This document shows positions 49,157 to 49,681 of a DNA stretch of 64,000 bases, piece after piece (the stretch's first letter is position 1; every line of letters begins with the position of its first letter). Source of the stretch: a bacterium (GTDB lineage Bacteria > Patescibacteriota > Minisyncoccia > Phycocordibacterales > CAIZIN01); the NCBI GenBank assembly GCA_037131675.1, contig JBAXQO010000002.1, positions 15,166-79,165 on the forward strand. The letters run 5' to 3'. The notes under the pieces were generated by a model that searched no databases, had not been told where the DNA came from, and saw only the letters and a list, made by a program, of their open reading frames with translations. Position numbers and translations under genes: made by a program.

Positions 49157-49282
49157 AAAACAAAGATCCTTTCTCTATAAAAAATATTAACATAAAGTAT
49201 GGTTTTAGTAAAATTATAGACTTGTTTTTTATATCATATATGATACAATGCTCGCGGGTGAGAGATTGAAAATTTAAAAAAT

Positions 49283-49330
49283 CTTCCCCTTGCGAGTCGG
49301 CGCCACAGGTTCCAATTCGCGAGGGGAAGA
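49283..49330 (+). promoter_or_regulatory. 15-bp anti-SD/SD helix sequestering the ribosome-binding site of a small ORF
   Basis: tcttccccttgcgag (49283-97) pairs with ttcgcgaggggaaga (49316-30) at 15 bp including two G-U wobbles. The right arm contains the GAGGGGAAGA Shine-Dalgarno 5 nt before the ATG at 49336. A TGnTACAAT extended -10 lies at 49240-49248. Confidence 0.4.
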
Positions 49331-49335
49331 GAGTG

Positions 49336-49581
49336 ATGAGCTCTGGCGAGTGTCTAGTCCGCACTACGCAAAAGTTTCCTCTCGTAAAGATACCAACCAT
49401 GGGAATCTTTCGAGCGATAGGCCTTGCTTTAGCTATCATCACTTTAAAACTTCTTGCGCCTGACATATGGCATGCGCTGGAAGGAACCCTCTTGGTGTTC
49501 TTTAATACCTTGCAAAGAACTTTGGCATTTGCGCCAGCAGATATTTTGCAAAGTAACGTAATCAGTGTGCCAAAAATTTAG
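49336..49581 (+). CDS. small hydrophobic protein, hypothetical
   Basis: 81 aa with one predicted TM helix (GIFRAIGLALAIITLKLLAP). Preceded by the sequestered SD and followed by a GC hairpin plus U-rich tract. Confidence 0.35.
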   Translation: MSSGECLVRTTQKFPLVKIPTMGIFRAIGLALAIITLKLLAPDIWHALEGTLLVFFNTLQRTLAFAPADILQSNVISVPKI

Positions 49582-49608
49582 CACCCGATAACGTAAACGT
49601 TTTTCTAA

Positions 49609-49650
49609 GGCCGCTTGCATTCGCATGCGGCCTTTATCATTTGCATTTTA
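49609..49650 (+). terminator. GC hairpin with U-rich tail
   Basis: ggccgc-12 nt-gcggcc followed by tttatcatttgcattttaattt. Confidence 0.4.
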
Positions 49651-49681
49651 ATTTGGGTATATTTCTGTTAATCTGTATTCA

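What the first reader, a model, noticed from the sequence alone, without database searches (positions are those of the whole stretch)
49157..49681. Orphan 0.5-kb region upstream of tgt: promoter, 15-bp anti-SD/SD helix, small hydrophobic ORF and terminator
The region holds an extended -10 (TGaTACAAT, 49240-48). A leader follows in which tcttccccttgcgag (49283-97) pairs over 15 bp with ttcgcgaggggaaga (49316-30). The right arm is the only Shine-Dalgarno (GAGGGGAAGA) for the ATG at 49336, so translation of the downstream 81-aa single-TM ORF should be blocked unless the helix melts or is displaced. A GC hairpin plus U-tract (49609-50) ends the unit. GC here is about 45%, above background. A second small gene (48944-49156) with good RBS and terminator lies divergently. 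The architecture resembles a translationally gated small membrane peptide: a type I toxin-like locus, an RNA thermometer, or a riboregulated small protein. Alternatively the transcript is itself a structured ncRNA and the ORF is fortuitous.
Basis: partly seen in the sequence, partly recalled or inferred. Interest (0 to 1): 0.65.

Follow-up and report, generated by a model that had tools for sequence, protein, structure and literature searches.

The report
Conserved RNA leader, small membrane protein
Upstream of tgt in this ultrasmall (Patescibacteria) bacterium lies a self-contained gene for a conserved 60-residue membrane protein, preceded by a conserved, folded ~145-nt RNA leader found in no RNA database searched; it probably keeps the message closed to ribosomes until an unknown signal opens it.

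Summary
The physical features are real: an extended -10 promoter, a 15-16 bp helix (P1), an ORF and a terminator. Comparison with 16 homologous leaders in three lineages shows the conserved coding sequence starts at ATG 49399 (60 aa; codon-position pattern 1313/685/1904). It does not start at ATG 49336. The 21 codons between them change frame or hit stops in relatives, so they are leader RNA.

The leader is a conserved structure. P1, a 5-bp mini-hairpin and hairpin P2 are supported by compensatory changes (0/500 shuffles reach the observed values). A fourth hairpin, P3, buries the real start codon, which has no Shine-Dalgarno.

The purine tract B (right arm of P1) is Shine-Dalgarno-like. It is complementary both to the left arm A and to a pyrimidine tract C next to P3. 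This suggests a three-element switch, but the second pairing is unproven.

The protein family has 131 clusters, is 50-110 aa, and has no Pfam, NCBIfam or PDB match. The gene sits immediately upstream of tgt in all three lineages. No Rfam family matches.

Best reading: a new cis-acting translational-control leader. The trigger and the protein's function are unknown. No antisense RNA was found.

The parts
49230..49249 (+). Promoter. Extended -10 TGATACAAT (49241-49249) lies inside the palindrome ATATCATATATGATA. The transcription start is inferred at about 49255-49257.
   Evidence: Sequence. The motif is unique in the 64-kb window, with 0 matches expected by chance. The same palindrome plus TGATATAAT is found before every copy in the W-group and in L102. 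The start site is inferred, not mapped.
49282..49297 (+). Tract A: the left, pyrimidine-rich arm of helix P1 (UCUUCCCCUUGCGAGU).
   Evidence: Fold. Compensatory changes in relatives. A:B duplex energy is -28.4 kcal/mol.
49315..49330 (+). Tract B: the right, purine-rich, Shine-Dalgarno-like arm of P1 (AUUCGCGAGGGGAAGA).
   Evidence: Duplex energy with a generic 16S 3' end is -9.2 kcal/mol. B is also complementary to tract C, at -16.7 kcal/mol.
49330..49344 (+). Mini-hairpin AGAGU[GAUGA]GCUCU. The upstream AUG (49336-49338) sits in its loop.
   Evidence: Folds. The stem is replaced by UUGGC/GCCGA in L096 and by UUGGC/GCUGA in L102, while the loop stays NAUKA.
49346..49369 (+). Hairpin P2 (GCGAGUGU[CUAGUCC]GCACU-A-CGC). 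The loop contains a conserved GUC.
   Evidence: Six of seven pairs change on both sides across the lineages.
49375..49383 (+). Tract C: pyrimidine tract UUUCCUCUC, 16-24 nt before the real AUG, complementary to B.
   Evidence: RNAalifold chose B:C when A was missing. B:C is 99% compatible in 13 leaders. It forms in silico when A is blocked. C is the best or second-best downstream partner of B in all 15 leaders. No unambiguous covariation.
49381..49414 (+). Hairpin P3 (CUCG-U-AAAGAU ... AUCUUUCGAG), which encloses the real start codon.
   Evidence: An equivalent start-codon hairpin with a different sequence exists in every relative. Mean energy is -8.6 kcal/mol, against -3.8 +/- 2.8 for 51 other ORF starts in the window.
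49399..49581 (+). Coding sequence of the conserved 60-aa helical-hairpin membrane protein (MGIFRAIGLALAIITLKLL...), annotated at NCBI as WCO12_01010.
49607..49643 (+). Intrinsic terminator of the unit: a GC-rich hairpin followed by UUAUCAUUU.
   Evidence: It is conserved in relatives with changed stem sequences.
49666..49682 (+). Context only: tgt's own extended -10 (TGTTAATCT) ends 7 nt before the tgt ATG at 49682. tgt is therefore a separate, probably leaderless transcript.
   Evidence: An equivalent element sits at the same offset in most loci. The leaderless status is inferred.

Best explanation
The region is one autonomous transcription unit. It encodes a genuine, conserved 60-aa two-helix membrane protein (start 49399), preceded by a conserved ~145-nt structured 5' leader. 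The leader acts in cis to hold the message in a translationally closed form.

Shown:
- The leader folds into a long helix P1 (tracts A:B), a 5-bp mini-hairpin, a hairpin P2, and a hairpin P3 that buries the start codon.
- The real start codon has no Shine-Dalgarno.
- The only strongly Shine-Dalgarno-like sequence, tract B, lies 70-80 nt upstream and is locked inside P1.
- B is also complementary to the pyrimidine tract C that abuts P3.

Inferred:
- The primary transcript is inert. Ribosomes can neither land on B nor reach the AUG.
- Expression needs P1 to be opened or cut, by processing, a helicase, or a trans-acting RNA or protein.
- Once freed, B either serves as a ribosome entry or standby site, from which the downstream hairpins are unwound, or it re-pairs with C. 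That would give a three-tract A/B/C switch.

The trigger, the direction of the B:C effect and the function of the protein are not known.
For: Real gene and start:
- Homologues align only from MGIF... onward.
- Substitutions by codon position are 1313/685/1904.
- The opposite-strand ORF carries stops in 3 of 13 copies.
- The family has 131 clusters at 50% identity.

Leader is non-coding but conserved:
- The frame changes between relatives while the DNA is conserved.

Structure:
- P1 plus P2 are 89.6% paired, with 10 pairs changed on both sides and 0/500 shuffles reaching this.
- Across three lineages, B:C plus the mini-hairpin plus P2 are 91% paired, with 9 such pairs and 0/500 shuffles.
- The mini-hairpin stem is fully replaced in L096 and L102.

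Start-codon hairpin:
- P3 is present in 15 of 15 leaders in four different sequence forms.
- The AUG is paired with probability about 1 in 11 of 15.
- Local energy is -8.6 kcal/mol, against -3.8 for other genes.

Tracts:
- A:B is -17 to -28 kcal/mol, B:C is -11 to -17, and B with a generic anti-SD is -8 to -12.
- B:C forms in silico when A is blocked.
- Family-wide check: in 36 divergent members whose ORF call reads through the leader, purine-codon residues peak at -24 to -27 aa. Pyrimidine-codon residues peak at -5 to -7 and at -37 to -40 aa. These are the window's spacings for B, C and A.

Context:
- The unit has its own promoter and terminator in every copy, including tandem paralogues.
- A long leader is exceptional in this genome, where most genes look leaderless or lack an SD.
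Against: - P1 is so stable, and is made first, that B may never be free. No trigger was identified.
- Blocking A in silico does not raise the predicted accessibility of the AUG, because P3 persists.
- B:C has no unambiguous covariation. The tracts are low-complexity purine/pyrimidine runs, and in 6 of 15 leaders a site inside the ORF pairs with B slightly better than C does.
- Shine-Dalgarno use is rare in this genome, 11 of 52 ORFs. This weakens an SD-centred logic.
- The upstream AUG is absent in L102, and the upstream reading frames end at unrelated places.
- Only 17 leaders from three lineages were available as DNA.
- There are no expression or probing data.
Confidence: 0.5

Rival explanations
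1. Riboswitch or other ligand- or protein-sensing leader. The three-way junction closed by B:C (mini-hairpin, P2, A-rich joining strand) would be an aptamer. Tract A and hairpin P3 would be the expression platform. Because the gene always precedes tgt, the ligand could be a queuosine precursor, and the small protein could be part of its uptake.
For: - There are mutually exclusive helices A:B and B:C.
- Loops are conserved (NAUKA; GUC), and the P2-C linker is A-rich across three lineages.
- The gene is immediately upstream of tgt in all three lineages, even where the upstream neighbour differs.
- From my own knowledge, known preQ1 riboswitches control membrane transporter genes.
Against: - No Rfam family matches, including preQ1-I/II/III, even at E <= 10.
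- A:B is 6-13 kcal/mol more stable than B:C and is transcribed first, which is hard for a small ligand to overturn.
- Few nucleotides are invariant across lineages.
- A 60-aa two-helix protein is an unlikely transporter.
- A terminator and a separate promoter lie between the gene and tgt.
- 33 other Patescibacteria tgt loci lack the gene.
Confidence: 0.15
2. Type I toxin-antitoxin-like locus. The small hydrophobic protein would be toxic, its mRNA would be made inert by 5' structure and activated by processing, and an antisense or trans RNA would neutralise it.
For: - The protein is small and hydrophobic, and the mRNA leader is heavily structured with a locked SD-like tract.
- Tandem paralogous copies occur, each with its own promoter and leader.
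- No known protein family matches.
- From my own knowledge, inert primary transcripts and remote standby sites are described for tisB, and anti-SD locks for hok and aapA1.
Against: - No conserved opposite-strand extended -10 lies within the unit.
- The covariance models find no further copy of the leader motif in the window or in any fetched locus.
- The protein is well conserved (131 clusters) and sits at a fixed chromosomal position in genomes of about 0.7 Mb (contigs of 696-772 kb). It behaves as a stable part of the genome rather than a mobile addiction module.
- At 60-66 aa with two helices, it is longer than most type I toxins.
Confidence: 0.12
3. Translation starts at ATG 49336 using GAGGGGAAGA as its Shine-Dalgarno, gated by P1, and yields the 81/82-aa protein.
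For: - SD-like B and the AUG are at good spacing, and this is invariant in the 13 leaders of the window's own lineage. The pairing is also present in L096.
- In the window, L090 and L092b, this AUG is in frame with the conserved ORF.
Against: - The frame is broken or shifted in most relatives, and the AUG is absent in L102.
- Homologues and the NCBI annotation start at 49399.
- About one in three copies being in frame is what chance predicts.
Confidence: 0.07
4. P1 is only a 5' protective stem (an mRNA stabiliser) or a processing site. Regulation, if any, resides in the promoter palindrome and in the weak AU-rich hairpin P3, which could act as a simple thermometer. The B-C complementarity is then a by-product of composition.
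For: - The promoter palindrome is conserved in two lineages and is unique in the window.
- In most leaders P3 is a 6-7 bp A/U-rich hairpin.
- B:C lacks covariation.
Against: - This does not explain why the basal half of P1 keeps a purine/pyrimidine sequence across lineages while the apical half varies freely.
- It does not explain why the mini-hairpin and P2 are conserved with compensatory changes.
Confidence: 0.12

Closest known systems
5' leaders of type I toxin mRNAs (tisB/istR-1, hok/sok, Helicobacter aapA1/isoA1); recalled from the literature, not tested here
   Same: A small hydrophobic protein. A long structured 5' UTR. A Shine-Dalgarno-like sequence locked by CU-rich anti-SD tracts. 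A ribosome entry site possibly far upstream of a structured start. Tandem copies.
   Different: No antisense or antitoxin RNA was found. The real start has no SD at all. The protein is longer, well conserved and fixed next to tgt. Toxicity is unknown.
Translational riboswitches with SD or start sequestration (for example preQ1-II/III upstream of queT-type transporters); recalled
   Same: A cis leader with covarying helices and mutually exclusive pairings around the start. A membrane-protein gene in a queuosine-related neighbourhood.
   Different: No match to any Rfam model. The 'off' helix is far more stable than the alternative. No ligand is known. The regulated gene is a 60-aa protein. tgt is a separate transcript.
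STAB-SD-type 5' stabilisers (Bacillus cryIIIA); recalled
   Same: A strong SD-like sequence in the 5' UTR, far from the start codon and not used for initiation of the main ORF.
   Different: Here the SD-like tract is buried in a 15-21 bp helix instead of being exposed to bind 30S subunits.
RNA thermometers (ROSE, fourU, cyanobacterial hsp17); recalled
   Same: A hairpin that occludes the start codon (P3).
   Different: P1 is far too stable to melt physiologically. P3 is not the conserved-sequence type of any Rfam thermometer.

Membership tests
Any Rfam 15 family (including preQ1-I/II/III, hammerhead, T-box, thermometers, known leaders) | A covariance-model score at or above the family's gathering threshold. 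| tested here: not met
   There is no hit on 49250-49400 at gathering threshold, and nothing relevant even at E <= 10. The same holds for four homologous loci.
Type I toxin-antitoxin system | A small hydrophobic membrane-targeted protein. | tested here: met
   The protein is 60-66 aa. The AlphaFold model has two helices (residues 2-19 and 21-44), the first hydrophobic, with mean pLDDT 79.
Type I toxin-antitoxin system | An antisense or partly complementary RNA antitoxin encoded in or next to the locus. | tested here: not met
   No conserved opposite-strand extended -10 lies in 15 units. The covariance models find no further copy of the leader motif. A promoter scan is not proof of absence.
Type I toxin-antitoxin system | Toxicity of the protein when expressed. 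| not testable with these tools
   This needs an expression assay.
Riboswitch | A conserved aptamer with covarying helices and invariant ligand-contacting nucleotides. | tested here: inconclusive
   The helices covary. Only about 20 columns are invariant across three lineages, mostly in tract B and the two loops. There are too few sequences to decide.
Riboswitch | Ligand-dependent switch between alternative structures. | not testable with these tools
   Alternative pairings A:B and B:C exist on paper. No binding data are available.
RNA thermometer | A marginally stable helix over the SD or AUG that melts in the physiological temperature range. | tested here: not met
   For P1: the duplex energy is -17 to -28 kcal/mol with 15-21 near-perfect pairs. 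P3 alone (-4 to -13 kcal/mol over a 50-nt window) could behave this way, but that remains untested.
Leader-peptide (upstream ORF) attenuation | A conserved short upstream ORF whose translation controls the downstream gene. | tested here: not met
   The upstream AUG is conserved in 2 of 3 lineages. Its ORF has 4 or 11 codons, or fuses in or out of frame, and there is no AUG at that place in L102.
Known protein families (Pfam, NCBIfam, PHROGs, PADLOC, PDB) | A significant profile or fold match. | tested here: not met
   Searches gave no hit above noise.

The most novel reading that the evidence does not exclude
The leader is a new ligand- or factor-sensing regulatory RNA class specific to Patescibacteria. 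A three-way junction would be closed by the B:C helix and kept in check by tract A. It would control a previously unrecognised small membrane protein that is functionally tied to tgt, for example in salvage of queuosine precursors by organisms that cannot make them.
Probability: 0.12. Interest if true: 0.8.

Novelty: new variant of a known kind. Interest (0 to 1): 0.58.

Why it matters
In the limited full-text searches run here I found no description of regulatory RNAs in Patescibacteria. One 2015 genome study found no flavin riboswitch in Parcubacteria genomes using the Rfam model (PMC4508563). Here a promoter, a covarying ~145-nt leader, a new small-protein family (131 clusters at 50% identity) and a fixed position before tgt travel together across lineages whose TGT proteins are only 60-85% identical. 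In a genome where most genes appear leaderless or SD-less, such an elaborate leader implies tight control of this one small membrane protein. It offers a concrete, clonable object for studying RNA-based regulation and small-protein function in uncultivated ultrasmall bacteria. It also shows that automated gene calls at this locus are unreliable. They give 82-aa or longer read-through products, or the wrong strand, as in the ENA and JGI assembly gene calls shown.

Tried and rejected
- Known RNAs. Rfam at gathering threshold and at E <= 10 on the window and on four homologous loci gave nothing on the leader. ARAGORN found no tRNA or tmRNA here. I considered a hammerhead because of GUGAUGAG...AAAAG. 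I rejected it because the core C is replaced by G, the helix order does not fit, and there is no model hit. I considered a box C/D or K-turn reading of GUGAUGA and dropped it. The sequence is lineage-specific and is replaced by UUGGCAAUGAGCC and UUGGCCAUUAGCU elsewhere.
- Triple helix between tracts A, B and C. Rejected because the strand polarity is wrong.
- A closing helix between the 5' purine segment (GGUGAGAGA) and tract C. The register is inconsistent between leaders and the 5' domain is not conserved.
- Loop-loop pairing between the mini-hairpin and P2. No consistent complementarity.
- P2 as a TGT substrate mimic. The loop has UAGUC, not the UGU that TGT recognises (from my own knowledge).
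- More DNA. The metagenome scan returned only one locus. The viral-contig scans returned none, and one alignment was too diverse to search with.
- Other copies. A profile search of the six-frame translations of all loci and the window found no further copies. The covariance models found no leader elsewhere in the window or in 33 other Patescibacteria tgt loci.
- Protein function. Pfam, NCBIfam, PHROGs, PADLOC, PDB sequence search and PDB fold search were all empty. The AlphaFold-database library was unavailable.
- Literature. Five full-text searches found nothing describing this element.
- Effect of opening P1. Accessibility modelling showed no predicted gain at the AUG when tract A is blocked. 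The direction of the switch therefore stays open.

Full report
**What is in the window**

The 850 bp between an FKBP-type isomerase gene (48358-48834) and tgt (49682-50890) hold two things. One is a divergent 70-aa ORF (48944-49156, minus strand). The other is the unit in question, on the plus strand.

- Extended -10 TGATACAAT at 49241-49249.
- A helix of 15-16 pairs, 49282/3-49297 with 49315-49329/30.
- An ATG at 49336 preceded by GAGGGGAAGAGAG.
- An ORF open to 49581.
- A GC-rich hairpin at 49607-49634 followed by UUAUCAUUU.
- A local rise in G+C.

RNAfold gives -40.7 kcal/mol for 49250-49345, with z = -4.0.

**Organism and neighbourhood**

The TGT protein is at most 69% identical to any species representative searched. 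All the best matches are Patescibacteria (Paceibacteria/Parcubacteria) genomes assembled from metagenomes. Contigs with an identical tgt exist in several lake metagenomes, and their leader is identical.

In related genomes the order LOG(-), FKBP(+), tgt(+) is common. FKBP often sits directly before tgt. The segment studied here is therefore an addition to that arrangement.

**The gene is real, but shorter than proposed**

A search with the 82-aa ORF found 11 proteins that align only with its last 60 residues. NCBI annotates exactly that 60-aa protein (WCO12_01010), starting at ATG 49399.

One relative's longer gene call reads 'SSPHYAKVSSRKDT' upstream. This is the translation of a different frame of the window. 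So the upstream DNA is conserved while the reading frame is not.

From the ATG at 49336, the downstream frame does the following in relatives:
- It stops after 4 codons in L094.
- It stops after 11 codons in L088.
- It stops after 6 codons in L096.
- It runs out of frame in L091b, L089b and L087.
- It is in frame only in the window, L090 and L092b.
- In L102 there is no ATG at that place.

Over 56 aligned codons in 13 copies, differences fall 1313/685/1904 on codon positions 1/2/3. The opposite-strand ORF, which some gene callers preferred, has stops in 3 of 13 copies.

A profile search of 1.84 billion cluster representatives found 131 related clusters, almost all 50-110 aa. The consensus is MKIFRAIGLxIAIIxLxxLMPxVFxALExTLLxFFxxLQxVL. 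AlphaFold2 predicts a helical hairpin (helices 2-19 and 21-44, pLDDT 79). No Pfam, NCBIfam, PHROGs, PADLOC or PDB match exists.

**The leader is a conserved RNA structure**

I recovered DNA for 17 leaders:
- 13 come from the window's own lineage (TGT 84-85% identical where measured). These include tandem paralogous copies in L089, L091 and L092, each with its own promoter, leader, ORF and terminator.
- Three variants come from a lineage with 60% identical TGT (L096, L097, L101).
- One comes from a lineage with 69% identical TGT (L102).

The order of elements is the same in all of them: promoter; pyrimidine tract A; a variable apical region; purine tract B; a 5-bp mini-hairpin with a 5-nt loop (GAUGA, AAUGA or CAUUA); hairpin P2 with GUC in its loop; an A-rich linker; pyrimidine tract C; 12-17 nt; the AUG.

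Evidence for each helix:
- P1 (A:B) shows U-A to C-G, C-G to U-A, G-C to A-U and C-G to A-U exchanges, plus G-U pairs. The G-U pairs argue for RNA pairing rather than a DNA palindrome.
- On the model-based alignment, P1 plus P2 are 89.6% paired, with 10 pairs changed on both sides. No shuffle of 500 reaches the observed values, and slid controls are 41-63% paired. That alignment is fitted to the model, so the counts lean towards the structure. The same exchanges are visible in the plain MAFFT alignment.
- Across the three lineages, the mini-hairpin stem is completely replaced: AGAGU/GCUCU becomes UUGGC/GCCGA and UUGGC/GCUGA.
- Six of seven P2 pairs change on both sides.
- In L096 and L097, P1 is extended to about 21 pairs. 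It encloses a ~135-nt insert that differs between strains encoding the identical protein.

No Rfam family matches the leader in the window or in four other loci, even at E <= 10. The two covariance models find it nowhere else in the window, nor in 33 other Patescibacteria tgt loci.

**The real start codon is buried**

The AUG at 49399 has no Shine-Dalgarno. In every leader it lies in a local hairpin, P3, which takes four different sequence forms:
- CAUAAY/RUUAUG.
- UAACAUA/UAUGUUA.
- CUCG-U-AAAGAU/AUCUUUCGAG (window and L094) and CUCG-U-AAAC/GUUUCGAG (L102).
- A fourth form in L096.

The mean folding energy of -25..+25 is -8.6 kcal/mol. For 51 other ORF starts of the window it is -3.8 +/- 2.8. 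The AUG itself is paired with probability near 1 in 11 of 15 leaders. P3 is kept even in L092a, where an ~85-nt insertion separates it from tract C.

**Three complementary tracts**

B is complementary to A (-17 to -28 kcal/mol). It is also complementary to C (-11 to -17 kcal/mol) and to a generic 16S 3' end (-8 to -12 kcal/mol).

Evidence on the B:C pairing:
- RNAalifold chose B:C when three sequences lacked tract A.
- B:C is compatible in 99% of cells, but only through G-U changes.
- When A is blocked in silico, B:C closes a three-way junction around the mini-hairpin and P2 in nearly all leaders.
- C is the best downstream partner of B in 9 of 15 leaders and the second best in the others.
- Both tracts are low-complexity, so apparent compensations between lineages depend on the chosen register. 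I treat B:C as plausible, not shown.

An indirect, family-wide check supports the three tracts. In 36 divergent family members whose gene call reads through the leader, residues with purine-only codons (R, G, E, K) peak at -24 to -27 aa. Residues with pyrimidine-rich codons (F, L, S, P) peak at -5 to -7 and at -37 to -40 aa. These are the window's spacings for B, C and A.

**Context**

- Only 11 of 52 long ORFs in the window have an SD-like 4-mer. Many have a -10 element 6-7 nt before the ATG, which suggests leaderless messages.
- tgt itself has TGTTAATCT ending 7 nt before its ATG. An equivalent element is conserved in relatives. tgt is therefore a separate transcript behind the terminator.
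- The small gene nevertheless lies immediately upstream of tgt in all three lineages. This holds even where the upstream neighbour is a peptidase instead of FKBP. Most Patescibacteria tgt loci lack it.

**Mechanism**

Shown:
- A genuine small membrane-protein gene.
- A conserved four-helix leader.
- A start codon without a Shine-Dalgarno, locked in a hairpin.
- An SD-like tract locked in a very stable helix.

Inferred, as the most likely reading (about 0.5):
- The primary transcript is translationally closed.
- Expression requires P1 to be opened or cleaved.
- B then acts as a ribosome entry or standby site, or re-pairs with C.

The direction of the B:C effect is open, because modelling shows no gain in AUG accessibility when A is blocked.

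Rivals:
- A ligand- or factor-sensing riboswitch-like RNA, possibly tied to queuosine salvage (0.15).
- A type I toxin-like module (0.12). No antisense promoter was found.
- A mere 5' stabiliser, with promoter-level or P3-level control (0.12).
- 'Structured ncRNA with a fortuitous ORF' is excluded by the coding signal.

**Novelty**

The kind is familiar: a cis-acting structured leader that occludes translation signals of a small membrane protein. This RNA and this protein family match nothing in Rfam 15, Pfam, NCBIfam, PHROGs, PADLOC or PDB. Five full-text searches found no description of them. The architecture is also unusual, with an SD-like tract locked 70-80 nt upstream of an SD-less, hairpin-buried start.

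Noticed in passing
window 49231-49246 (also L102 about 2340-2360, and before every copy in L087-L094): The promoter spacer and -10 form a perfect palindrome, ATATCATATATGATAT. It is conserved in two lineages (not in L096) and is unique in the 64-kb window. 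It reads as an extended -10 on both strands (TGATACAAT on plus, TGATATAAA on minus). It could be an operator for a dimeric regulator or a pair of back-to-back promoters.
   Followed up: partly
window 48944-49156 (minus strand), terminator about 48896-48922: A divergent 70-aa ORF (NCBI WCO12_01005) with AAAGGA upstream and its own hairpin plus U-tract. Only one homologue (64% identical) was found among 5.8 billion protein clusters, and there is no Pfam hit. It is absent from the corresponding locus in the other species. It looks like a genuine orphan gene unrelated to the leader unit.
   Followed up: partly
window 49666-49682, and many other gene starts in the window: tgt and many other genes have a TGnTAnnnT-type -10 element ending 6-7 nt before the ATG. 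Only 11 of 52 long ORFs have an SD-like 4-mer. This suggests widespread leaderless translation in this organism.
   Followed up: partly
L096 2310-2435 compared with L097 2310-2435: Strains that encode the identical 60-aa protein carry unrelated ~70-nt sequences inside the apical part of P1. The flanking helix and the downstream core are conserved. This is a fast-evolving or exchangeable insert within the leader.
   Followed up: no
L092 2905-2990: One tandem copy (L092a) has an ~85-nt insertion, itself containing a hairpin, between a degenerate tract C (UUUAUCUU) and the start-codon hairpin. The start-codon hairpin is retained and is even longer, at 9-12 bp.
   Followed up: no
L089, L091, L092: Two paralogous subfamilies of the small protein occur in tandem in some genomes (N-termini MLQDIRIFRA... 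and MKIFRAIG...). Each copy has a complete promoter-leader-ORF-terminator unit.
   Followed up: partly
window 49444-49626 (minus strand); L081-L085: The assembly gene calls shown for the ENA and JGI contigs annotate a 58/60-aa ORF on the opposite strand instead of the conserved plus-strand gene. Many database entries for the family carry spurious N-terminal extensions translated from the leader.
   Followed up: yes
window 50948-51505 (minus strand): The 185-aa ORF downstream of tgt has no Pfam or NCBIfam match. In relatives, similar-sized unannotated ORFs occupy this position.
   Followed up: no
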